This document shows, one piece after another, positions 3,020 to 55,481 of a stretch of DNA of 64,000 nt (positions are counted from its first letter, which is position 1; the number at the start of each line of letters is the position of its first letter). The position numbers and the translations under genes are program-made. The DNA comes from Clostridiales bacterium GWF2_38_85 (GTDB lineage Bacteria; Bacillota; Clostridia; Oscillospirales; CAG-382), in assembly GCA_001797275.1 (NCBI GenBank), contig MGOY01000036.1:36361-100360 (forward strand). Reading direction: 5' to 3'. The notes beneath the pieces were generated by a model. That model was given only the letters and a program-made list of their open reading frames with translations, did no database searches and was not told where the DNA came from.

Positions 3020-4130
3020 ATGGCGAAAAGTGAATTTATTTCTCAGCTATCTGAGAGTATCCAATCAGAGTTGAACGATTATATGAATGCTACAATAGAG
3101 ATATATGGAATTATATCGATGGAAAAGCTTGTAGAAATCATCAATTCACAGAATGATTATGTAGTTACAACAGATGATTTGAAATATGTTGGTTTTAAAA
3201 AGCGGGTTTAGTCACCAATTTTATGTTATTTACAAAAAGAATGTTGTACATGAATCATTGTTGATGGATGGACAGGAGGATTATAATCTTCTATTAAACT
3301 ATCAAGAGAAAAAACCTTACAAAAAAATCGGTAAAACAGAGCTCTTAAAATGGTCTGAATATGACTATTATGAAATGCCAAAACAATATACAAAGCTTCG
3401 GAAATTTTTAGTTGCTGATGTTGAGTTGATGAGAGATGATGCTGAAAACATTTGCTTCGACATATATTTGGATATAACAACTCAAGTCGAAAAAGCAAAT
3501 ACAATGGAGATAATTCAAGATTATGATATCGAGATTGACAGCGATCAATTCGACAAGCTATCAGATCTACTGGTCGAATGTAACAACAACACACCGCTTT
3601 GGGTAAACAGAGGTTATACTCCTGTTGAACTCGCTTTGCTTCATTACGAACAAACTATTGATATAGATAAAAAAGAAAAAGCATCTCAAAGAAAAAAATC
3701 TGTTGTATCGAATAGTTCTAAGCATTCATATGTAATCACTGCTTCATGCGGAAGCGGTTGTTATCGCCATATCAAAATTTCAGAAAATGCAACTTTATTT
3801 GAACTGCATGAAGAAATACTATATTCCGTTGGTTTCATCGACGACCATGCACATGTTTTCTTTATGAATAATATCGCTTGGGATCGTACAGAAGGCTATT
3901 ACAGTGATATTATTGAAGACGAAAAAAGATTTACCAGTGATTACACGTTGAAAAAGTTAAAGCTTGAGGTTGGCGATAAGTTCAAGTATATTTTTGATTT
4001 CGGTTACGAATGGCTGTTTCAATGCAAGGTGTTGAAAAAGCTCGACGAAGACACCGAAGAACCTGAAGTAATCAGAAGCAAAGGCGAAATCGAACAATAT
4101 GGATATTATGATGAAGATGAGGATGAATAA
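3020..4130 (+). pseudogene. pRiA4b ORF-3-like (MM3350-like) domain protein, apparently frameshifted at a T4A5 tract
   Basis: The 63-aa ORF (3020-3211) has a good GAGG RBS. The 314-aa ORF (3186-4130) lies in the +1 frame and has no RBS. Removing one A from the run at 3197-3201 joins them (..KYVGFKSGFSHQFYVIYKK..). The C-terminus (YVITASCGSGCYRHIKISENATLFELHEEI..YIFDFGYEWLFQCKVLK) resembles the MM3350-like fold. Confidence 0.55.
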
Positions 4131-5831: not shown

Positions 5832-6623
5832 CTATTTATAGAATCGATGTCCATACTTCTCAAATAGGAACACCCTTGTTTCAAACCATGCCATAACAGA
5901 ATAATCGCTTACATACCGAGGCGAGTAATAATACAAAGCTCCCTGGCTGTTATCGACAACAGTATTACTTAAAACTTCATTCACAGCTTGGATTGTATTT
6001 TCGTTTATTTTTATATTCGATGATGCCCAATCATAAACCGATGTAAACTGGCCCTCCTGCATTAGAACGTCAAATATCGTATTTGGGAATTGTTGATTTT
6101 TCACTCTGCTTAAAACAATGTTAACAATAATTCGCTTATGTTCGACATCAGAGCTGCCACATTCCTTCTGTACCAAAAAGCATAGCATCTCAAGCTCGGT
6201 GTTTGTATATCGTATTGTAGAATATGAATACATAACATTGTGAGTTTGCATTTCTTCTTCAAGCTCAGATATCATATCCTGAAGCTTTGAGATTTGATTT
6301 TTTAATGTGTTATTTTCATCATTTATCAATCCCTCGCGTTGTTCTTGTTCTGTAATAGTTGCGTATGCTTGTTGCAATTCTTTAGTCAAAGCTTTATTTT
6401 CGAAGGCATAAAAGCTTGTGGTGTTGTTAGCTTTATCTATTGATGATGCAGTTTCATTTTTCAATATATCAATTTGTTCGTTCAAATTTGTAATCAATGA
6501 TTCTTTTTTATAAGCAATCTCAGACAAGAATCCGATTTTATAAACACAAACCATACTACATGTTGCTAAAAGCGCAATCAGAATTATCGAAAACCATCGA
6601 TTTGATTTATTCGTAGATGTCAT
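5832..6623 (-). CDS. membrane-anchored cell-wall hydrolase, SleB/CwlJ (Hydrolase_2) family, with a coiled-coil linker
   Basis: N-terminal TM helix (WFSIILIALLATCSMVCVY), then a Q/E/L-rich coiled coil. The C-terminal part (ELEMLCFLVQKECGSSDVEHKRIIVNIVLSRVKNQQFPNTIFDVLMQEGQFTSV..ALYYYSP) is typical of the SleB catalytic domain. Confidence 0.75.
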   Translation of the reverse strand: MTSTNKSNRWFSIILIALLATCSMVCVYKIGFLSEIAYKKESLITNLNEQIDILKNETASSIDKANNTTSFYAFENKALTKELQQAYATITEQEQREGLINDENNTLKNQISKLQDMISELEEEMQTHNVMYSYSTIRYTNTELEMLCFLVQKECGSSDVEHKRIIVNIVLSRVKNQQFPNTIFDVLMQEGQFTSVYDWASSNIKINENTIQAVNEVLSNTVVDNSQGALYYYSPRYVSDYSVMAWFETRVFLFEKYGHRFYK

Positions 6624-6645: not shown

Positions 6646-6750
6646 AAATATTAAACTAACAAATGAATAAGTATATTAATGATTTTAAAAGTCCTGCAGA
6701 AAAGGCTTTAACAAAATCGCTGGTACAATTCATTTATCAGTTTAATATAG
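6646..6750. repeat. ~105-bp palindromic repeat element, diverged copy 1 of 3
   Basis: Outer arms AAACTAACAAATGAAT / ATTCATTTATCAGTTT and inner arms GATTTTAAAAGTCC / GGCTTTAACAAAATC. It ends in GTTTAATATAG, like the copies at 21915 and 53770. Confidence 0.7.
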
Positions 6751-7005: not shown

Positions 7006-7509
7006 TTGAAAATAATTGAGACAGAAAGATTGTATTTAAGAGAATTTCAATATAATGACAAAATTGAATTGATGAAGGTTCTGTCAGATCCTGAGTCTAT
7101 GCAATTCTATCCGCATCCTTTCAGTGAAAAGGAAGTTGAAGATTGGATTAAGTGGAATATTGAGAATTATAAGAAATACAGACATGGATTATGGGCAGTT
7201 ATACTCAAACAAGGTGATACCTTTATTGGTGATTGTGGTATAACAATGCAGAACATCTGTGATGAAATCCTACCCGAAATTGGTTTTCATATTATTAAAG
7301 AATATTGCAATAAGGGTTATGCAACAGAAGCCGCAGCTGCCTGCAAAGAGTATGCTTTTAATGTTCTGCGATATTCCAAAGTGTTCTCCTATACAACAAT
7401 ACAAAATATACCTTCACAAAAAGTTGCAAAGAAAATCGGAATGCAGCTCTTAAAACAATTCGAGAAGAATAATGAAAAATATATTGTACATGCAACAAGT
7501 AATGATTGA
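7006..7509 (+). CDS. GNAT-family N-acetyltransferase (RimJ/RimL-like)
   Basis: IETERLYLREF.. N-terminus and a ..GYATEAA..AF.. acetyl-CoA-binding region. It uses a TTG start. Confidence 0.8.
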   Translation: MKIIETERLYLREFQYNDKIELMKVLSDPESMQFYPHPFSEKEVEDWIKWNIENYKKYRHGLWAVILKQGDTFIGDCGITMQNICDEILPEIGFHIIKEYCNKGYATEAAAACKEYAFNVLRYSKVFSYTTIQNIPSQKVAKKIGMQLLKQFEKNNEKYIVHATSND

Positions 7510-20906: not shown

Positions 20907-21764
20907 TTATTTCATTATTTCCCTATTGAATTTTGTCATAAATTTAATAATTAAGTCATGAGACAAAAATTTACCTATATATTGATATAGCTTTATCGGC
21001 ATTCCATACACTGTTGTCTGCTTTCCACGACATGCTGTTTTTAGCGTATGTCTTACGACAGCTTTGGCAGATACAATATAACCCTTCTTTTCAGGCTTAT
21101 GCTTTGCATTTCCTGTATGTTCAAAAAATTCGGTATCAATCTTGCCGGGGCATATAGCTGTAACGCTTATGCCTTTTGAATTAAGCTCATATTTCAAAGC
21201 TCTTGAATAGCTGATGACAAATGCTTTAGTTGCTGCATATACATTCTCGAAAGGAACCGGGACAAATCCTGCGCAGGATGCGATCTCTAAAATATGGCTG
21301 CCTTTATTCATATAAGGCAGAATTATAACAGTCATTGCAACTAAGGCTTTAATATTCAAGTCAATCATTTTATCATTGTCAGCTTCGGATATCTCATCGT
21401 ATCTTCCATAAATGCCAATTCCTGCAGAATTGATGAGGTATCTCACAACCGGTTTTTCTTGTTCAAGTATAATTTTCAACTCAGCCCGCCAGCTATCATT
21501 AAATAAATCGATTGTAATTATTCGGACTTTTGTATTCAGCTTCTCTTTCAATTCATTAAGTCTGTCCTCACGTCTTGCAATCAACCACAATTCATCCAAC
21601 CCGTACCCGTCAAGCTGAACTGCAAATTCTCTGCCAAGCCCCGAAGAAGCACCTGTTATAACTGAGATATTCATAAATATAACCATGCCTTTCTTGATGA
21701 AGCGGAATGTTTTGGACGGTTCGGCATATGCCGAATTTCGGTTACAATTTTGACCGAAAAGCAC
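20907..21764 (-). CDS. SDR-family oxidoreductase (the true start is probably internal, at 21674 or 21686)
   Basis: ITGASSGLGREFA cofactor motif and the YAATKAF catalytic Y-x3-K. The N-terminal 26-30 aa of the track ORF are atypical. Confidence 0.8.
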   Translation of the reverse strand: MLFGQNCNRNSAYAEPSKTFRFIKKGMVIFMNISVITGASSGLGREFAVQLDGYGLDELWLIARREDRLNELKEKLNTKVRIITIDLFNDSWRAELKIILEQEKPVVRYLINSAGIGIYGRYDEISEADNDKMIDLNIKALVAMTVIILPYMNKGSHILEIASCAGFVPVPFENVYAATKAFVISYSRALKYELNSKGISVTAICPGKIDTEFFEHTGNAKHKPEKKGYIVSAKAVVRHTLKTACRGKQTTVYGMPIKLYQYIGKFLSHDLIIKFMTKFNREIMK

Positions 21765-21914: not shown

Positions 21915-22020
21915 TATATAAAACTAATAAATGAATTACTACAGCAATTTGAAAAATGCCTATACTTTTTGGCTTTTTTCAAATTAATAAAATCACAATT
22001 CATTTGTTAGTTTAATATAG
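21915..22020. repeat. 106-bp palindromic repeat element, copy 2 of 3
   Basis: TATATAAAACTAATAAATGAATTAC..CAATTTGAAAAATGCC..GGCTTTTTTCAAATT..CACAATTCATTTGTTAGTTTAATATAG. It is ~94% identical to 53770-53875. Confidence 0.85.
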
Positions 22021-22141: not shown

Positions 22142-22537
22142 ATGATTAAAGCCCTTAGTCGGAAAAATCAGATAATGCTGATTATAGTTTTATCTGCAGT
22201 ACTGATTTGTGTAATAACAGTCATAGCCTTTAGATTTTTATCCGCACCGGTCACTGTTAAGATAACAGATTCGGAAAATGCTAAAATTACTGTGAATATT
22301 AACATTCCCGATGCCAGATTTGAAAATGTTTCGATAATCTGTCTGAAGCCGGGTTATACAGTCGATAGCATTGCTGCCAGCAAAGATGGTATCTGCGACA
22401 TCAGGCAAATAACCCTCGACAAGGATGGAGGAGCAAAAATTGATTTAACTCTTCCCACAAATGAATCCGGTGAATATATTATTCAGATCGGTACAGATAA
22501 GAAACTATATTCAACCAAATTCAAATTGGCAAACTGA
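22142..22537 (+). CDS. hypothetical membrane-anchored protein (131 aa)
   Basis: N-terminal TM helix (IMLIIVLSAVLICVITVIAF) and a beta-rich ectodomain. It lies immediately upstream of the GH27 gene. The RBS is weak. Confidence 0.5.
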   Translation: MIKALSRKNQIMLIIVLSAVLICVITVIAFRFLSAPVTVKITDSENAKITVNINIPDARFENVSIICLKPGYTVDSIAASKDGICDIRQITLDKDGGAKIDLTLPTNESGEYIIQIGTDKKLYSTKFKLAN

Positions 22538-49900: not shown

Positions 49901-50257
49901 GCAATGGAGAGCGAACCTTCGAAAAAATTTATTCCTGTTTCCTATAATACCAAGTTGAATGCTGACGGCACCCCCGTTATAAGCAAAAACTCATCGGTCG
50001 CGACCGACAATGAGTTTGACCATATACACCGCTTCATCAGATCAAGGCTTACCGAATTTTCTTGTGAAATCGAAAAAGGCAATATCGAGGTCAACCCGTT
50101 AGTCATTGATGCTCTCGGCAAGGATGCCTGCAAAGGCTGCGAGTTTCTGCCTGTCTGCCGCAACAGCCGCAATAGGAAACGCAGACTTGAAAAGTTGTCT
50201 AAAGAAGAAGCTTGTGAGATATTATATGGTAAATCAGACGGAGGGGAGAAAAAATAA
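46973..50257 (+). CDS. addB: helicase-exonuclease AddAB, subunit AddB
   Basis: MIYNIFGRSGSGKT Walker A at the true start (GGAAGG RBS). C-terminal RecB-type nuclease with Fe-S Cys (CPFSFF...CKGCEFLPVC). The track start at 46730 overlaps spoIIR and I reject it. Confidence 0.9.
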   Translation: MIYNIFGRSGSGKTEYILQELKRYSDRQCIIIVPEQQALVTERLLSLRLGDNYNMFCEILNFERLSDRVFREYGGVARKYIDEGGRDILMSVALERLSGKLKQYNNTGCGADYIRKMLSAINSFKQSSITPAILLKLAESPEIIQREPMLSDKLSDLSIIMAYYQSLFTDCHDPKDRPEHLIDILRTYHFFENKTVFIDGYYTYTAQEYELLEIIFKQCDNAYITFCCPLNNSDPSFGEIKTAYVKVRCAEDMSKHEIKQKELTTNHRTGSAELQHLEVNIWNTSAKPVPAVPNDIHIYECSNMFEEAEAAASEICTLVREKGYRYRDIGIAVRSSDNYGGVIDAVFEKYKIPTFMSIKEDITIKPLISLIFSAVEAVVTDFSPQSVKRYIKSSFSRLTREESDFLSAYIDMWKIRGKSRYTGIDWQMNPDGYREQLSKYSEHILVVVTEAKDKLNDTLIKFAEEISGRNITAAECASAIYSLLTDIDANKKIVKDIEEAKNDGDEEHALELKQLWDIIVAVLDQLYLVGGNEIVTSKRLLELLKIITAEYEIGKLPTSVDEVIVADARLARFDNIKALIILGVNEGVFPAAERNGELFNESEQRILEKVGFESIKSIERRLTDEQFLFYITISAPSERLSLYYSAASSSGSSLRASVAINRVIALFPELKVIVPAKDRSYFIQTVETAFDYFIYLPEPIKLRILLESGYTFSPLTVLSATVDGTLLSKIRLSPSSLERYSLCPFSFFTKYVLKLRAEKAAAFEAGEVGTFIHKLLEMYLKNHQSDIARVDRTKINDELQLISADFINLISNNNKDIQTDRLSFTISRLTNLVKIFIENISDEFAQSRFSPLGFEMHLGSEHTPSGEMLLDDGRILNINGVIDRVDYYEKDDKTYIRIVDYKSGYLTYSPVAPVYGLSLQMFLYLFSWCKKNESNFVPAGVLYMPVKPPVFKSAESDIKHIIPRSGLVLQDYDIIEAMESEPSKKFIPVSYNTKLNADGTPVISKNSSVATDNEFDHIHRFIRSRLTEFSCEIEKGNIEVNPLVIDALGKDACKGCEFLPVCRNSRNRKRRLEKLSKEEACEILYGKSDGGEKK

Positions 50258-53200
50258 TGCCGAACTGGACAGAGCTGCAAAATGCAGCAATAACAGATAA
50301 AAACCGTTCGCTTGTTGTTTCTGCCGGTGCCGGTAGCGGCAAGACCTCAGTCCTCACCGAACGCATACTTCAAAAGCTGCTTTCCGGTAGCGATATTGAC
50401 GAATTCCTTGTTGTTACCTTCACAAATGCGGCTGCAGCAGACTTGAAAACAAAGCTTTATAAAAATATAAACGAAGCTCTGTTAAAGCAACCTGACAGCA
50501 GACATCTATATAATCAACTGTTTAAAATCGACAGTGCTTTTGTTTCAACCATACACGCTTTCTGTTTTGATCTGATCCGTCAAAATTTCCAGTCGTTGAA
50601 CCTGTCACCAAAGCTGCGTATTACCGACCAAGCTGAATCTGATATGCTGCTCACCAGATGCATCAACGATCTGTTCGACACCAAATACAGTTCGAAGGAC
50701 AGCGGTTTTCTGATGCTTGTTAAGCAGCTTACAGATCAAAAGGGCGACAAAAAGCTCATCGATGCAGCCATAAATATATACAAAAAAGTACGTTCGTATC
50801 CCTATCCACAAAAGTGGTTCCAAAATTGTATCGAACAATTGAAATACGAGTTAGAAAAAACAAAAAACGACTTTTTCGCAACGTCGTTCGGTGATAAATT
50901 GAAGGAATATACCGTTGAACGGATAGCTTCTGCGTTTGCTCTGCTTGATGATATAGAAATATATAAATCATCACTGACTGATAAACAGGCTGATGTTATC
51001 AATGCGGTATATAACAGCCTGGTTGGTATAAAATCAGTCTCAGCATATGGATATACTGAGTTGCGAAACGCAATATCTGATTACAATGTTCCTTCATTCC
51101 GTAAATCAAAGACACCGACTAATGAAGAAATAATAGTTTCGGAATTAAAATCACAAATAACCGATATAATCAAGACGCTTCGTGATGAATATTTCTGTGA
51201 CAGCATGAAAGATATTTATGCTGATATTGCTGTTGCTGTCAGGATTACAGAAGCACTGTCAAAGCTGATTTCCGAGCTTGATGAAAGCTACTTTGAGATA
51301 AAGCGTGAGCGCGGAGTTCTTGACTTCTCAGACCTTGAGCATCTGTCGCTGCAGCTGCTGACAGACGAAAACGGCAATCGTTCAATATTATGTGAAAAGG
51401 TTTCAGAACAGTTCGCAGAGATTTACATAGACGAATATCAGGATACGAACCCTCTCCAGGATATGATTTTCTCACTGATTGCAAAAGATAACAATAAATT
51501 CATTGTCGGTGATGTAAAGCAAAGCCTTTACCGCTTCCGTAATGCTGAACCTGAAATATTCAACGACTATATAGACGACACCCCTGACTTTAATATGCCA
51601 GGTAAAAAAGCGAGGGTGTTCCTGTCCGACAACTTCAGATGTGACAAGCCCATAATCGACTTCACTAATGCCGTGTTTTCTACTTTATACAATAAAACCT
51701 ACGGTTCATATAGCGAAAACGAAAAACTGATTTACGGCAAACATATTACCGCCGAAGTCCTGCCTGTCACTGTTACAACAATCGCAGGTGACAGCGATAC
51801 CGAAGCTGAATACTTTGCAAAAGAGATTGTAAACATAAAAAAAACGATGTTAAAAGAAAACAGCGAGCCAATAAAATATTCTGATATTGCAATCTTACTC
51901 AGAACTCCTAAAAACAACGCCGATACCTTCATCAAAGCTCTGCAGAAATATAATATACCCACATACAGCGAACAAAACGGCTCATTCCTTGATGCGCCCG
52001 AAATATTGCTTGCGGTATCTCTACTCAAGGTCGTCGACAATCCAAGGAATGATATTGCGCTTACTGCACTGCTCAGAAGTCCGGTATTTGCATTCAACGA
52101 AACCGAACTTGCAAAAATCAGACTGTCTGCCTTCGATGCTACGATGTTTGATTCTGTTGTAAACTGTGCAAGGAGATATAAAGCTCAGCCTAAGAGTAAA
52201 CGATATCGTTGCTACCATATGATAAGAAATGTAAGAACAAATAAAAAGATAAAAAAATCACTTCCGACAATCTCACGTGAGCTTGGCAAAAAAGCCGATG
52301 ATTTTCTGAAAACATTGAAAACCTGGCAGACGAAAAACGAAGGTTACCCGTCGCATAAATTCATATGGTACATTTATCGTACAACCGGCCTGTATTCGCT
52401 TGCATCAGCCGAGCTGAACGGTGAAGCGGTCAAGAAGAACCTGCTTTTACTTTATGAGCATTCGAGAGTGTTTGAGCAAACCTCGTTCAGAGGGCTCAGC
52501 AGCTTTATCTCATACCTTGATGAGATATACGACAAGGATAAACCACTGCCGGAAGCACCTGCATTGTCAGAGAACAACAACTGTGTACGTATTATGAGCA
52601 TACACAAATCCAAAGGTCTTGAGTTTGAAGTTTGCTTTCTAGCAAACACAGACAAGAAAATACTACAGGCCGATAAATCGCCTTATGTTATCCGCCGTGA
52701 TACAGGAGTGCTTTTCAAAAAACGTTTTATCCGAAACCTTTATATCCGCAATTCACTATTGACAAAAATAATGCTTCTCAGCGAAAACAAAGATAATATG
52801 GCTGAAAGTTTGCGCGCATTGTATGTTGCATTTACAAGAGCAAGACGAAAGCTCTATGTTACCGGGATTGAGAAGGATAAGGACGAAAACAAGCGGGATT
52901 CATATTTGGACTGTATCCGATACACCCTGAAAAAGCGTGATCTTTCGGATATAGTCGAGGAAATGGTTTATGCAAGCACTGATGAATCTGACTTCACAGA
53001 AAGAGCGGTTGTTAATACATCGGTATTCAACAATGAAAATGAACTTGAGAAAAGATTGAACTTCAAATACCCCTACCCTGCCGCAACAGTTGCAAAGTTA
53101 GCTGTTTCCGAACTTGAGCAGGATGAAACCGAAAACAGCTTCAGAATATCCGCAAAGCACACCTCTGCACTTTCACAGCCTATTTTTATTTCGCAAAAAA

Positions 53201-53709
53201 CAAGCAGCACCGACATCGGTACTGCTATGCATACTTTTATACAATTCGCAAATTTTGAAAATGCTGAAACTGCTGGAACAAGTAATGAAGCTGAAATTCT
53301 ACTGAAAAAAGAGATGCTGACCAGCGAACAGGTTGAGATGCTCAACCATACAAAACTGACTGCATTCTTTGAATCCGATCTTTATTACGAAATAAAATCA
53401 GCAAATAAAGTCTGGCGTGAAAAACGGTTCAGCATCATGGAGGACAGTCTCTTATTCGGTCAGTCTTCCGGTGAAAAAATCATGGTACAGGGTGTAATCG
53501 ATATGTTCTTTGAAACTGATGACAGGATTACAATTGTTGACTTCAAAACTGACCGAATTACCGAAAATGCAATTCCCGACTTTATTAAAAGGCATACTGC
53601 ACAGCTTAAATATTACTGTCTTGCAATTGAAAAAATGACGTTAAAAAAAGTAACACGTGCGATTCTATATTCCTTCGAGCTTGGAAGAGCAGTTTTGGTT
53701 GATATTTAA
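50257..53709 (+). CDS. addA: helicase-exonuclease AddAB, subunit AddA
   Basis: UvrD/Rep helicase motifs (SAGAGSGKTSVLTER, DEYQDTN, VGDVKQSLYRFR) and a C-terminal PD-(D/E)XK nuclease (GVIDMFF..DFKTD). Confidence 0.92.
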   Translation: MPNWTELQNAAITDKNRSLVVSAGAGSGKTSVLTERILQKLLSGSDIDEFLVVTFTNAAAADLKTKLYKNINEALLKQPDSRHLYNQLFKIDSAFVSTIHAFCFDLIRQNFQSLNLSPKLRITDQAESDMLLTRCINDLFDTKYSSKDSGFLMLVKQLTDQKGDKKLIDAAINIYKKVRSYPYPQKWFQNCIEQLKYELEKTKNDFFATSFGDKLKEYTVERIASAFALLDDIEIYKSSLTDKQADVINAVYNSLVGIKSVSAYGYTELRNAISDYNVPSFRKSKTPTNEEIIVSELKSQITDIIKTLRDEYFCDSMKDIYADIAVAVRITEALSKLISELDESYFEIKRERGVLDFSDLEHLSLQLLTDENGNRSILCEKVSEQFAEIYIDEYQDTNPLQDMIFSLIAKDNNKFIVGDVKQSLYRFRNAEPEIFNDYIDDTPDFNMPGKKARVFLSDNFRCDKPIIDFTNAVFSTLYNKTYGSYSENEKLIYGKHITAEVLPVTVTTIAGDSDTEAEYFAKEIVNIKKTMLKENSEPIKYSDIAILLRTPKNNADTFIKALQKYNIPTYSEQNGSFLDAPEILLAVSLLKVVDNPRNDIALTALLRSPVFAFNETELAKIRLSAFDATMFDSVVNCARRYKAQPKSKRYRCYHMIRNVRTNKKIKKSLPTISRELGKKADDFLKTLKTWQTKNEGYPSHKFIWYIYRTTGLYSLASAELNGEAVKKNLLLLYEHSRVFEQTSFRGLSSFISYLDEIYDKDKPLPEAPALSENNNCVRIMSIHKSKGLEFEVCFLANTDKKILQADKSPYVIRRDTGVLFKKRFIRNLYIRNSLLTKIMLLSENKDNMAESLRALYVAFTRARRKLYVTGIEKDKDENKRDSYLDCIRYTLKKRDLSDIVEEMVYASTDESDFTERAVVNTSVFNNENELEKRLNFKYPYPAATVAKLAVSELEQDETENSFRISAKHTSALSQPIFISQKTSSTDIGTAMHTFIQFANFENAETAGTSNEAEILLKKEMLTSEQVEMLNHTKLTAFFESDLYYEIKSANKVWREKRFSIMEDSLLFGQSSGEKIMVQGVIDMFFETDDRITIVDFKTDRITENAIPDFIKRHTAQLKYYCLAIEKMTLKKVTRAILYSFELGRAVLVDI

Positions 53710-53769: not shown

Positions 53770-53875
53770 TATATAAAACTAATAAATGAATTACCTTAGC
53801 AATTTGAAAAATGCCTATGCTTTTTGGATTTTTTCAAATTAAAAAAATCACAATTCATTTGTTAGTTTAATATAG
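53770..53875. repeat. 106-bp palindromic repeat element, copy 3 of 3
   Basis: Only 6 mismatches to 21915-22020 over 106 bp, with the same nested inverted repeats. Confidence 0.85.
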
Positions 53876-53996
53876 TATATATCTGCTTTTATAAAACAAT
53901 TATCTTATCTTTATATATATATTTATATGTAAAACTAATTTAAAAACAATGTTAGTATATAATTGTATAAATAAATACTTTAAAAGGGTGGTTTTG

Positions 53997-55481
53997 GTGA
54001 AAAAGTTATATTTGTTATTGGTAATCATAATTATTCTGTCTCTTGCATCCTGCAACGGCGGAAACAATAATTCAACCACATCCGAATCCGAGAGTTCGGG
54101 TATCAACAGTACTGCATCAGAAGAAGAATCACTTTTTGTAAATCTCCCCGAATACAATGGCAACGGTGAAGAATTCTGGTTCCTTGTCGGTGGCAAAGAA
54201 TACGGTGAGAGATACAAATCAATCGAAATCGCAGCTGACGAAAATACAACAGAACTTATTAATGATGCGGTTCTCAACAGAAACAATCTCGTTGAAGAGA
54301 AGCTGGATATCAAAATCTGTACATATGCAACTGCCTCGGGCGAGAGTATTGCAGCAAAAATCAGAAATCTGATTCAAAGCAATGATGATACATATGATGT
54401 AGTAATGCCTATGATGACAGATGCTGCGACTCTTGCAGTTTCGGGTTCATTTTATGCCCTGAACGATATCGAAACACTTGACCTGACTGCAAAATGGTGG
54501 GACGAGAAAACGGTTGAAGAGCTGACACTCGCAAATAATCTATATTTCACCACAGGATATATGAGTATTCTTGATAACGACAACACCCAGTGTCTTATAT
54601 TCAATAAAACACTTCTCCAGGAAAACGGACTTGAAAGTCCCTACCAGCTTGTCAATGATGGTGAATGGACAATCGACAGACTTCAGGAAATGGCTGCAAC
54701 AGTCACAAAAGACACCAATGGTGACTCTTTGTACAACAGCGATGACATCTGGGGAATTTACATCAACACTTTTGCACCGCAGTTCTTTTATATTGCATCC
54801 GGAGAAAGATTCATTATTAAGGATTTAAATGATCTTCCGCAGATAGCTGTAAATACAACAAGAGCTTATTCTGTTGTCGATAGACTTGCAGAGCTTATGG
54901 GAGATACAACAGCATGTTATCAGATTGAAAACATACCTGCTGCAGAATATCAGGGCAAAGGCTTCTCGGATTATTATTACCTTGCAACCGATGCCATCGG
55001 CACAAACCGTTGTCTGTTCAGGACAATGTGTCTTGTTGACATACGCGAGCTTGCCGACTACAACTGCAGCTATGGTATAATACCGCTGCCAAAATTCGAT
55101 AAAAATCAGGATGAATATTATTCAATCGTTGATGTAACTCTTGCTCCCGGTATATGCATACCTACAACAAATCAAAATCCTGAGCTAGCCGGAATTGTTC
55201 TCTCCGCAATGGGTGAAGCATCGGAAAAAACCTTGAATTACGCATATTATGATGTCATGTTAAAGCAACGTAAGGTCGAAGATACTGAAAGCAGAGATAT
55301 GCTCGATATCATATTCAACAACCGTGTATATGATCTTTCAATCGCATTCAACTGGGGCGGATTAAGTTCAATCATTGATGTATCAGTTAAAGACGGTCAA
55401 AATACCTTCCAGTCTACCCTTGATGCAAATTTAGATAAAATTCAAACAGCCATCGACAGTACAATTAACAGTTTGAAATAA
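53997..55481 (+). CDS. extracellular solute-binding lipoprotein (large sugar-ABC SBP type), orphan
   Basis: GTG start after an AAGGGTGG RBS. Lipobox LSLASC, an S/N/E-rich linker, and a ~450-aa SBP-like body. There are no adjacent permease or ATPase genes. Confidence 0.7.
   Translation: MKKLYLLLVIIIILSLASCNGGNNNSTTSESESSGINSTASEEESLFVNLPEYNGNGEEFWFLVGGKEYGERYKSIEIAADENTTELINDAVLNRNNLVEEKLDIKICTYATASGESIAAKIRNLIQSNDDTYDVVMPMMTDAATLAVSGSFYALNDIETLDLTAKWWDEKTVEELTLANNLYFTTGYMSILDNDNTQCLIFNKTLLQENGLESPYQLVNDGEWTIDRLQEMAATVTKDTNGDSLYNSDDIWGIYINTFAPQFFYIASGERFIIKDLNDLPQIAVNTTRAYSVVDRLAELMGDTTACYQIENIPAAEYQGKGFSDYYYLATDAIGTNRCLFRTMCLVDIRELADYNCSYGIIPLPKFDKNQDEYYSIVDVTLAPGICIPTTNQNPELAGIVLSAMGEASEKTLNYAYYDVMLKQRKVEDTESRDMLDIIFNNRVYDLSIAFNWGGLSSIIDVSVKDGQNTFQSTLDANLDKIQTAIDSTINSLK

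What the first reader, a model, noticed from the sequence alone, without database searches (positions are those of the whole stretch)
21915..22020. A ~106-bp nested-palindrome repeat family: three intergenic copies, two 94% identical and one diverged with compensatory stem changes
Seen in sequence:
- 21915-22020 and 53770-53875 differ at only 6 of 106 positions, although they lie 32 kb apart in unrelated intergenic regions.
- 6646-6750 is a diverged third copy.
- Every copy is a long imperfect hairpin. The outer arms are TATATAAAACTAATAAATGAATTAC / CACAATTCATTTGTTAGTTTAATATA.
- The inner arms are AATTTGAAAAATGCC / GGCTTTTTTCAAATT, around a ~10-nt loop.
- In copy 1 both arms have changed together (outer AAACTAACAAATGAAT / ATTCATTTATCAGTTT; inner GATTTTAAAAGTCC / GGCTTTAACAAAATC). 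Pairing is kept while the sequence drifts.
- All three sit upstream of plus-strand genes: the GNAT gene, the GH27 cluster and the orphan sugar-binding lipoprotein. Two of them are in divergent promoter regions.

Inference:
- This is a MITE/REP-like mobile palindrome, or a structured cis-regulatory or RNA element shared by carbohydrate-related genes.
- The conserved flanks (ATATA before, AATATAG after) could be part of the element or an AT-rich insertion target.
Basis: seen in the sequence. Interest (0 to 1): 0.65.

Follow-up and report, generated by a model that had tools for sequence, protein, structure and literature searches.

The report
Ninety-copy IS630-type miniature transposon
The 106-base palindrome is one of about ninety copies of a small, non-coding "hitch-hiker" transposon (a MITE) scattered between the genes of one uncultured groundwater bacterium; it was most likely moved by the genome's only IS630-family transposase, so it is an ordinary kind of element, although this family has not been described.

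Summary
The window holds three copies: 21915-22019, 53770-53874 and 6647-6749. The third is inverted relative to the other two.

They are not a local regulatory motif.
- The whole 2.83-Mb genome has about 92 copies, 70-72 of them full length.
- All full-length copies are intergenic and lie next to unrelated genes.

Each copy has these features:
- 23-bp terminal inverted repeats
- a compensated inner hairpin
- stop codons in all six frames
- ends of the form TA-TAT...ATA-TA

The flanks show a strong C-TA / TA-G bias, which is the classical IS630 CTAG target. One copy splits a gene. Deleting exactly 103 bp and leaving one TA restores a frame colinear with its paralogue, so the target duplication is TA.

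A blind search for terminal-repeat pairs found one 1139-bp IS630-family insertion sequence. Its ends match the MITE ends at 18-19 of 23 positions. It carries the only DDE_3 transposase in the genome.

Element and IS are both absent from 30 relatives. The element's terminal repeat is also absent from 185,579 species genomes, plasmids and phages.

Verdict: a new, lineage-restricted MITE family of the RUP/IS630-Spn1 type.

The parts
21915..22019 (+). MITE copy of the main, young sub-family A. TA (21915-21916) is followed by a 101-bp element (21917-22017) and TA (22018-22019). Outer terminal repeats are 21915-21937 and 21997-22019. The inner stem is 21946-21960 / 21971-21985 around a 10-nt loop. 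It lies in the divergent spacer between an SDR gene (20907-21764, minus) and a 131-aa ORF followed by the GH27 gene.
   Evidence: It is 100% identical over 103 bp to C28:39230-39332 and 98-99% identical to six other loci.
53770..53874 (+). MITE copy of sub-family A, with 6 differences from the copy at 21915. It lies in the tandem spacer between the 1150-aa ORF (50257-53709) and the 510-aa ORF (53949-55481).
6647..6749 (-). Older MITE copy of the sub-family B type, in inverted orientation. Its left TA has mutated to AA. It ends 23 nt upstream of the start of the minus-strand Hydrolase_2 gene (5832-6623) and 256 nt upstream of the GNAT gene (7006-7509). A paralogous spacer on C44:53962-54244 lacks it.

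Best explanation
[quoted passage not shown] The element is 101 bp long and is bounded by 23-bp terminal inverted repeats.

Proposed mechanism:
- An IS630-family (Tc1/mariner-type DDE) transposase supplied in trans recognises the terminal repeats.
- The best candidate is the one resident 1139-bp IS at C8:118214-119352.
- The element is cut out and pasted into TA dinucleotides, preferably in C-TA-G, and duplicates the TA.
- Insertions survive only between genes, so the copies accumulate in spacers.
- One sub-family amplified recently, giving copies 98-100% identical. Older sub-families persist as diverged copies such as the one at 6647-6749.

What is shown:
- copy number, boundaries and lack of coding capacity
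- intergenic restriction
- target bias and the 2-bp duplication
- similarity of the ends to the IS, and co-occurrence with it

What is inferred:
- that this particular transposase moves the element
- that the element is still active

The three window copies have no demonstrated role in regulating their neighbours.
For: Repetition:
- nhmmer finds 92 non-overlapping loci, 72 of them full length.
- 70 terminal-repeat pairs are spaced 101-111 bp apart.
- Three contigs start inside a copy.

Boundaries and coding:
- Conservation stops sharply outside TATAT...ATATA.
- All six frames contain stop codons.

Target:
- The base before the left TA is C in 41 of 70 copies, against 9.3% at intergenic TA sites (p about 1e-24).
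- The base after the right TA is G in 32 of 70, against 9.1% (p about 1e-15).
- A full CTAG occurs in 13 of 70, against 0.28%.

Duplication:
- Copy C21:16141-16245 interrupts a secreted-protein gene.
- Of the deletions of 101-105 bp tested, only removal of 103 bp (one TA kept) restores an ORF colinear, residue for residue, with the paralogue on C46.
- Paralogous empty sites for C36 copy 1 and for C8:44878 also place the insertion at a TA.

Selection against genic insertion:
- 69 of 70 copies are intergenic in a genome that is 88.6% coding.

Transposase:
- A blind scan for terminal-repeat pairs picked up a 1139-bp element whose ends match the MITE ends at 18/23 and 19/23 positions.
- It encodes HTH_29/HTH_33 plus DDE_3 domains.
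- It is the only DDE_3 gene in the genome.
- Homologues named IS630-family share the TATATAT tips and the A8 overlap of the two ORFs.

Co-occurrence:
- MITE and IS are both present in G000 and both absent from 30 relatives, including the one other species of the genus.

Mobility of derivatives:
- A 72-bp deletion form lies at three loci and a 50-bp deletion form at two, each with different flanks.

Precedent:
- RUP of S. pneumoniae is 107 bp, has 108 copies, has ends like IS630-Spn1 and targets TA (PMC2229807).
Against: - No natural empty-site allele or presence/absence polymorphism was seen.
- The MITE ends match the resident IS only at 18-19 of 23 positions, and the interior shows no similarity, so the element is not a simple deletion derivative. 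No IS with identical ends was found anywhere.
- The transposase is split into two frames at an A8 run. This looks programmed because it is conserved in homologues, but function is unproven.
- The simple MITE model does not by itself explain why the inner stem is kept by compensated changes in every sub-family.
Confidence: 0.85

Rival explanations
1. A structured cis-regulatory or RNA element (leader, attenuator, terminator or small RNA) that co-regulates carbohydrate-related genes through its conserved hairpin.
For: - The hairpins are very stable.
- The inner stem shows compensated changes.
- About a quarter of copies end within 40 nt of a start codon and so must lie in or next to 5' UTRs.
- One weak hybrid promoter-like match, TTGTTA-17-TATATT, lies at the right end of the copy at 21915.
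Against: - Neighbouring genes are functionally unrelated.
- Spacer types match what spacer length predicts: 47 tandem, 18 divergent and 5 convergent, against about 43, 18 and 9 expected.
- Orientation relative to the flanking gene is 28:18, not significant.
- The end facing a gene start is right 31, left 25.
- Closeness to starts is no greater than random TA choice gives: 10 observed against 11.6 expected.
- Neither strand folds better: the reference orientation of the model is the more stable strand in 36 of 68 copies, p = 0.35.
- The scan finds no terminator-like site and there is no Rfam match.
- The sharp ends, the TA duplication and the CTAG bias are properties of a transposon, not of a regulatory site.
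Confidence: 0.05
2. A REP-type repetitive extragenic palindrome spread by a RAYT (IS200/IS605-like Y1) transposase through single-stranded hairpin intermediates.
For: The element is palindromic, extragenic and high in copy number, and its hairpin is kept by compensated changes.
Against: - The genome has no Y1_Tnp gene, while the control genomes do register.
- The unit is about 101 bp with 23-bp terminal repeats and a TA duplication, not a 20-40-bp palindrome without duplication.
- The ends match an IS630-type IS.
- There is no strand asymmetry in folding.
Confidence: 0.02
3. A MITE, as in the best explanation, but with an inner hairpin that is itself functional. It could help very short elements bring their ends together by cruciform or hairpin formation. 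It could bind a host or transposase protein. It could also reduce the harm of insertion by acting as a transcript stabiliser or insulator.
For: - Seven of 12 inner-stem pairs carry changes on both sides.
- 88.6% of cells are paired, and 0 of 500 shuffles reach the observed covariation.
- Each of eight sub-families has its own nearly perfect 14-16-bp inner stem.
- The asymmetric bulges are homologous across sub-families, so the sub-families descend from one asymmetric ancestor and did not arise by separate fold-back events.
- Full-length forms far outnumber the hairpin-less derivatives, about 70 against 5.
Against: - The 72-bp and 50-bp derivatives lack the inner hairpin yet occur at several loci with different flanks, so the hairpin is not essential for movement.
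- Copies are related by descent, so the number of independent compensated events is small.
- Repair templated between the two arms of a palindrome could keep the symmetry without selection.
- There is no strand bias and no positional bias.
Confidence: 0.15

Closest known systems
RUP (repeat unit of pneumococcus) with IS630-Spn1, Streptococcus pneumoniae (Oggioni and Claverys 1999, as summarised in PMC2229807)
   Same: - Size is about 105 bp (RUP 107 bp).
- Copy number is about 100 in a genome of 2-3 Mb, almost all intergenic.
- The ends resemble those of a resident IS630-family IS.
- Insertion is at TA.
- All six frames contain stops.
- Young, highly similar copies suggest recent activity.
- One copy lies inside a degraded transposase gene (L042), recalling RUP's insertions in IS elements.
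   Different: - There is no sequence relationship. The 23-nt end has no exact match in 185,579 species genomes, a set I assume includes S. pneumoniae.
- The contiguous terminal repeat is longer, 23 bp against 9 bp as listed in PMC2229807.
- There is a distinct compensated inner hairpin.
- The host is an uncultured groundwater spore-former.
Correia / NEMIS elements of Neisseria
   Same: - Terminal repeats are about 24 bp.
- TA is duplicated.
- There are 100 or more copies.
- The transcripts would form long stem-loops.
- Length variants with internal deletions exist.
   Different: - Correia elements have no known cognate transposase.
- They carry IHF sites and documented outward promoters and RNase III sites. 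None of these was found or testable here.
- There is no sequence similarity.
IS630 family insertion sequences (IS630 of Shigella, IS642 of Halalkalibacterium halodurans, IS630 elements of Muricomes)
   Same: - The resident IS has HTH plus DDE_3 domains and two overlapping ORFs.
- It has tips of the TATATAT type, and homologues are named IS630 family or IS642 transposase B.
- The MITE shares the terminal-repeat pattern TATAT.AAACTAAY.
- The CTAG/TA target is known for IS630 (my own knowledge of the family).
   Different: The MITE has no transposase gene and shows no interior similarity to the IS.
Nezha MITEs of cyanobacteria (recalled from memory, not checked here)
   Same: These are MITEs linked to an IS630-type autonomous partner, with TA duplication and signs of recent activity.
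   Different: The phylum and the sequence are different.

Membership tests
Prokaryotic MITE | Short (under about 300 bp) with no coding capacity | tested here: met
   The unit is 101 bp plus the TA duplication. All six frames of the consensus contain stop codons.
Prokaryotic MITE | Terminal inverted repeats | tested here: met
   The ends are 23 bp long and paired in 91% of cells across 68 distinct copies.
Prokaryotic MITE | Target-site duplication | tested here: met
   The evidence is indirect but specific. Among the deletions of 101-105 bp tested, only removal of 103 bp (one TA left) restores the reading frame of the interrupted gene on C21, colinear with its paralogue. Paralogous empty sites agree. 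No allelic empty site is available.
Prokaryotic MITE | Many dispersed copies with sub-families | tested here: met
   There are 92 loci on 30 or more contigs. There are eight sub-families with two or more members, and the largest has 24 distinct near-identical sequences.
Prokaryotic MITE | A related autonomous element that could supply the transposase | tested here: met
   The IS at C8:118214-119352 has ends matching at 18/23 and 19/23 positions and carries the only DDE_3 gene in the genome. Actual mobilisation was not tested.
IS630/Tc1-mariner-type mobilisation | Insertion at TA with a 2-bp duplication and a preference for CTAG | tested here: met
   C precedes the TA in 41 of 70 copies, G follows in 32 of 70, and a full CTAG occurs in 13 of 70 against a 0.28% background. 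The 2-bp duplication is shown.
IS630/Tc1-mariner-type mobilisation | The transposase binds the ends and excises and integrates the element | not testable with these tools
   This needs EMSA or footprinting and a transposition assay.
REP / RAYT system | An associated Y1 (RAYT) transposase gene | tested here: not met
   PF01797 has no match in the genome, while controls were positive in 6 of 14 genomes. The genome is about 96% complete.
REP / RAYT system | A palindrome of 20-40 bp without target duplication | tested here: not met
   The unit is 101 bp with terminal repeats and a TA duplication.
Any Rfam RNA family | Match to a curated covariance model | tested here: not met
   Only chance snoRNA-level matches with E above 2, none of them on the element.
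Intrinsic terminator | A G+C-rich stem followed by a T run, placed at 3' ends of genes in a fixed orientation | tested here: not met
   The scan finds none. The stem has only 3 G-C pairs and a 10-nt loop. Copies are not enriched in convergent spacers (5 against about 9 expected) and show no orientation bias.
RUP family of S. pneumoniae (sequence family) | Sequence homology to RUP | tested here: inconclusive
   The 23-nt end has no exact match in any of 185,579 species genomes. No direct alignment with RUP was made. The resemblance is one of kind, not of sequence.

The most novel reading that the evidence does not exclude
The inner hairpin is not a passive relic. It may be selected at the level of the element itself, for example because a 100-bp element is too stiff to loop and needs hairpin or cruciform formation to bring its two ends into one transposase complex. 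Alternatively, the stem may be a second protein-binding site. If so, this family would offer a natural set of compensated sub-families with which to test how very short MITEs achieve end synapsis.
Probability: 0.15. Interest if true: 0.55.

Novelty: new member of a known kind. Interest (0 to 1): 0.3.

Why it matters
Practical value:
- The family explains several contig breaks in this metagenome-assembled genome. It should be masked before anyone reads its palindromes as operators, terminators or small RNAs.
- The three window copies are insertions, not shared control sites of the GH27, GNAT or sugar-binding genes.

Biological value:
- It is a clean example of a MITE burst confined to one lineage and paired with a single-copy IS630-family element in an uncultured spore-former.
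- The CTAG target preference is strong.
- The set of sub-families, each keeping its own inner stem, could be used to ask what a MITE needs besides its ends.

It does not open a new class of system.

Tried and rejected
Empty sites
- I looked for allelic empty sites in other assemblies of the organism: NCBI GCA_003504315.1, ENA ERZ909592, Logan SRR3309375 and JGI Ga0209417. All are 100% identical over the loci fetched, so they give no information.
- I looked for orthologous spacers in the only other species of the genus (G001). It is too diverged: one 109-bp hit at 72% identity.

Searches elsewhere
- The pattern of both ends, and of one end alone, was scanned over 185,579 species genomes: 0 hits.
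- Viral contigs gave 5 hits, all chance matches inside a phage coding sequence.
- The extra hits in JGI metagenomes were also chance matches in marine phage-like genes.
- Plasmid and phage collections gave no match.

Structure and position
- RNAalifold on the 68-copy MAFFT alignment returned an empty structure. I therefore supplied the structure by hand for pair counting.
- G-U cells outnumber A-C cells 150 to 51, but this comes from a few inherited states. By columns the count is 28 against 26, and folding energies show no strand preference. I rejected strand-specific (RNA) selection as unsupported.
- Many copies abut a Shine-Dalgarno sequence. I tested whether the element homes to translation starts. 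Random choice among the TA sites of the same spacers gives as many such cases, so I rejected this.
- I looked for an outward promoter in the ends. There is only a weak -35-like TTGTTA, with no consistent -10 in the flanks. I did not pursue it.
- I looked for nested MITE-in-MITE insertions that would show the duplication directly. None was clean.

L042
- On contig L042 a copy lies between two pieces of an IS3-family transposase gene. The frames do not rejoin with a 103-bp deletion, and roughly 120 codons seem to be missing. This locus therefore cannot test the duplication.

Full report
1. THE OBSERVATION

The three stretches exist as described.
- Copies 21915-22020 and 53770-53875 differ at 6 of 106 positions.
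- The copy near 6646-6750 is diverged (alignment A1).
- Each folds into a long nested hairpin far more stable than shuffles. MFE is -33.3, -31.4 and -24.4 kcal/mol on the plus strand, with z-scores of -9.0, -6.8 and -4.3.

Two refinements follow.
- The conserved unit runs from TATAT to ATATA, giving 21915-22019, 53770-53874 and 6647-6749.
- The third copy is inverted relative to the other two. nhmmer places it on the minus strand. Only in that orientation do its loop and asymmetric bulges line up with the rest of the family.

2. IT IS A GENOME-WIDE REPEAT

The window is C36:36361-100360 of a 2.83-Mb, 37.9% G+C, 47-contig genome. This genome is GCA_003504315.1, a metagenome-assembled genome from groundwater.
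- An iterated nhmmer profile finds 92 non-overlapping loci, 72 of them full length.
- An independent scan for the 22-nt end finds 70 inverted pairs spaced 101-111 bp apart. It also finds a few shorter pairs of 45-78 bp.
- Contigs C10, C17 and C29 begin inside a copy, so the repeat breaks the assembly.
- Three more copies lie on unbinned contigs of the same JGI metagenome.

3. ANATOMY

The alignment of all full-length copies shows these parts:
- sharp boundaries
- a 23-bp terminal inverted repeat: left TATATAAAACTAATAAATGAATT, right (as reverse complement) TATATTAAACTAACAAATGAATT
- two unequal bulges of 8 and 11 nt
- a 14-16-bp inner stem
- a loop of about 10 nt

Clustering gives one large young sub-family: 24 distinct sequences, with 18 copies having a nearest neighbour at 98% identity or more. 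There are seven smaller, older sub-families.

Each sub-family has its own inner-stem sequence, and each of those stems is almost perfectly paired. Examples:
- AATTTGAAAAATGCC / GGCTTTTTTCAAATT
- GATTTTGAAAAAGCC / GGCTTTTTCAAAATC
- AATCATGAAAAAGCC / GGCTTTTTCATGATT
- CATTCGATAAAAACC / GGTTCTTTATCGAATG

Pair counting on the hand-given structure gave these results:
- 88.6% of 2551 cells are paired.
- 16 pairs have changes on both sides, 7 of them among the 12 inner-stem pairs.
- None of 500 shuffles, and no slid register, reaches these values.

The bulges are asymmetric yet homologous between sub-families. The sub-families therefore descend from one ancestor and did not arise by separate fold-back events. 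The compensation is real, although the number of independent events is small.

4. TARGET AND DUPLICATION

Flank composition is far from background.
- The base before the left TA is C in 41 of 70 copies, against 9.3% at intergenic TA sites.
- The base after the right TA is G in 32 of 70, against 9.1%.
- C-TA...TA-G occurs in 13 of 70, against 0.28% CTAG among intergenic TA sites.
- This is the target known for IS630: CTAG with TA duplicated (my knowledge of the family).

No allelic empty site could be found (see section 8), but a paralogue served instead.
- Copy C21:16141-16245 sits just after the signal peptide of a secreted-protein gene.
- That gene has a 78%-identical paralogue on C46 that lacks the element.
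- I joined the flanks in silico with deletions of 101 to 105 bp.
- Only the 103-bp deletion, which leaves one TA, gives an open frame: ...IPASALTISNNNANNIENISENKKDEKLIVEEDTSKRGEFEKHFYCTDGSF...
- This is colinear with the paralogue...IPASALTVLSNDNINSIENTSEKEESEKLIVEEDTSKRGEFEKHFYCTDGSF....
- Hence the element is 101 bp and the duplication is 2 bp (TA).

Two other paralogous empty sites, for window copy 1 on C44 and for C8:44878 on C42, also place the insertion at a TA.

5. THE LIKELY TRANSPOSASE

The scan for end pairs also returned one pair 1139 bp apart, at C8:118214-119352.
- This element encodes two overlapping ORFs. The first has HTH_29, HTH_23 and HTH_33 domains. The second has DDE_3 at E = 1.4e-30. 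This is the domain set of IS630-family transposases.
- Its ends are TATATATAACTAACTATTGATTT and TATATATAACTAACAAAATAATT. They match the MITE ends at 18/23 and 19/23 positions, and the tips coincide.
- It too is flanked by C-TA...TA-G.
- A decayed second copy lies at C36:11614-11783.
- It is the only DDE_3 gene in the genome.
- Homologues at 59-80% identity are mostly the same roughly 196-aa second ORF. Some are named IS630 family transposase (Muricomes intestini) or transposase B of IS642.
- Their DNA shows the same TATATAT tips and the same CTCTAAAAAAAAT overlap of the two ORFs. The split is therefore probably a programmed frameshift or slippage site and not decay.
- Among 31 genomes (own, one of the same genus, 17 of the same family, 12 of the same order), both the MITE and this transposase occur only in the genome of the window.

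6. WHAT IT IS NOT

Not a regulator of carbohydrate genes.
- Ten randomly chosen downstream genes include a sporulation protein YtfJ, a Glu/Gln-tRNA synthetase, a RiPP enzyme, a resolvase, an ACT/metallo-beta-lactamase protein, a GNAT, a T2SS-F protein, a GDSL lipase and a LysM-GH18 protein.

Not positioned like a regulatory element.
- Of 70 full-length copies, 69 are intergenic although my crude ORF calls cover 88.6% of the genome. This is the pattern expected when genic insertions are removed by selection.
- Spacer types are 47 tandem, 18 divergent and 5 convergent, against about 43, 18 and 9 expected from spacer lengths.
- Orientation relative to the flanking genes in tandem spacers is 28:18 by my count from the table, binomial p about 0.18.
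- The end that faces a nearby start codon is right 31, left 25.
- Many copies abut a Shine-Dalgarno sequence. Choosing at random among the TA sites of the same spacers gives as many such cases: 10 observed against 11.6 expected.

Not a strand-specific RNA.
- Neither strand folds better: mean -28.4 against -27.8 kcal/mol, with the reference orientation more stable in 36 of 68 copies, p = 0.35.
- The excess of G-U over A-C cells (150 against 51) comes from a few inherited states. By columns it is 28 against 26.

Not a known RNA family, terminator or REP.
- There is no Rfam match.
- There is no terminator-like site.
- There is no RAYT gene.

7. HOW IT MOST LIKELY WORKS

The element is a non-autonomous transposon.
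- The IS630-family transposase, made from the single resident IS, binds the 23-bp ends.
- It excises the 101-bp unit and inserts it at TA, preferably within CTAG, duplicating the TA.
- Copies that land in genes are lost. The copy on C21 is a rare survivor, in what looks like a decaying paralogue: after removal of the element, the frame still stops at codon 105.

Near-identical copies, such as C36:58275 and C28:39230 which are 100% identical over 103 bp, point to a recent burst.

The ends alone seem sufficient for movement.
- A 72-bp derivative with one shared internal deletion lies at three loci with different flanks.
- A 50-bp derivative of little more than the two ends lies at two loci.

The inner hairpin is therefore not essential. 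Its conservation through compensated changes, and the numerical dominance of full-length forms, remain unexplained by the minimal model.

The steps from "ends resemble the IS" to "this transposase moves it" and to "still active" are inference.

8. LIMITS

- All other public assemblies of this organism are identical over the fetched loci.
- The sister species is too diverged for spacer comparison.
There is therefore no evidence on insertion polymorphism or transcription.
- Gene calls used for the context statistics are my own longest-ORF heuristic.

9. COMPARISON AND NOVELTY

In kind, this matches RUP of Streptococcus pneumoniae.
- RUP is 107 bp long, has 108 intergenic copies, has ends like IS630-Spn1, targets TA, has stops in all frames and looks recently active (PMC2229807).
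- Correia elements share the 24-bp ends and the TA duplication but have no known transposase.

By sequence the family is new.
- The 23-nt end has no exact match in 185,579 species genomes.
- It is absent from plasmids and phages.
- It matches viral contigs only by chance.
- In JGI metagenomes it occurs only in the sample that holds this same organism.

I rate it a new member of a known kind, of modest interest. Its main value is as a caution for annotating this genome and as a tidy MITE/IS630 pair with a well-marked target preference.

Noticed in passing
G000 C8:118214-119352 (outside the window): A single intact-looking IS630-family IS of 1139 bp. Its HTH ORF and DDE_3 ORF overlap at an A8 run (CTCTAAAAAAAAT). 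The same overlap is conserved in homologues of 72% identity from Muricomes and fermentation metagenomes, which suggests programmed frameshifting or transcriptional slippage. A decayed second copy lies at C36:11614-11783.
   Followed up: partly
G000 C21:16141-16245, with paralogue at C46:about 1039-1363: A MITE copy splits a secreted-protein gene just after its signal peptide. After in-silico removal of the element, the frame still stops at codon 105, so this paralogue is probably already a pseudogene.
   Followed up: partly
G000 C8:44878-44982 and C40:16631-16735; empty paralogue at C42:32185-32287: Sub-family B copies sit inside another short inverted-repeat unit, TAGCGTGAAA...TTTCACGCTA. This is the box that earlier notes on this genome described as leader units. 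The C42 copy of that unit lacks the MITE.
   Followed up: partly
L042 (JGI Ga0209417_1022011) 3728-3832: A MITE copy lies between two non-contiguous pieces of an IS3-family transposase gene: the OrfA helix-turn-helix part, then the OrfB ...STYYYY part. Roughly 120 codons seem to be missing, which may reflect a deletion linked to the MITE. It recalls RUP insertions in IS elements.
   Followed up: partly
G000 C14:259192-259263, C31:75538-75609, C44:40254-40325; C25:56670-56719, C37:53473-53522: Short derivatives of the MITE that lack the inner hairpin (72 bp and 50 bp). Each occurs at several loci with different flanks.
   Followed up: partly
G000 C36:101732-102062 (1.4 kb beyond the window end): Two MITE copies of different sub-families lie 121 bp apart in one divergent spacer.
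   Followed up: no
window 22142-22537: A 131-aa ORF with no Pfam match lies between the MITE at 21915 and the GH27 (Melibiase_2 / NPCBM) gene. It, and not the GH27 gene, is the first gene downstream of that copy.
   Followed up: no
G000 contig starts C10:1-87, C17:1-78, C29:1-75: Contigs begin inside MITE copies, so the repeat is one cause of fragmentation in this assembly.
   Followed up: yes
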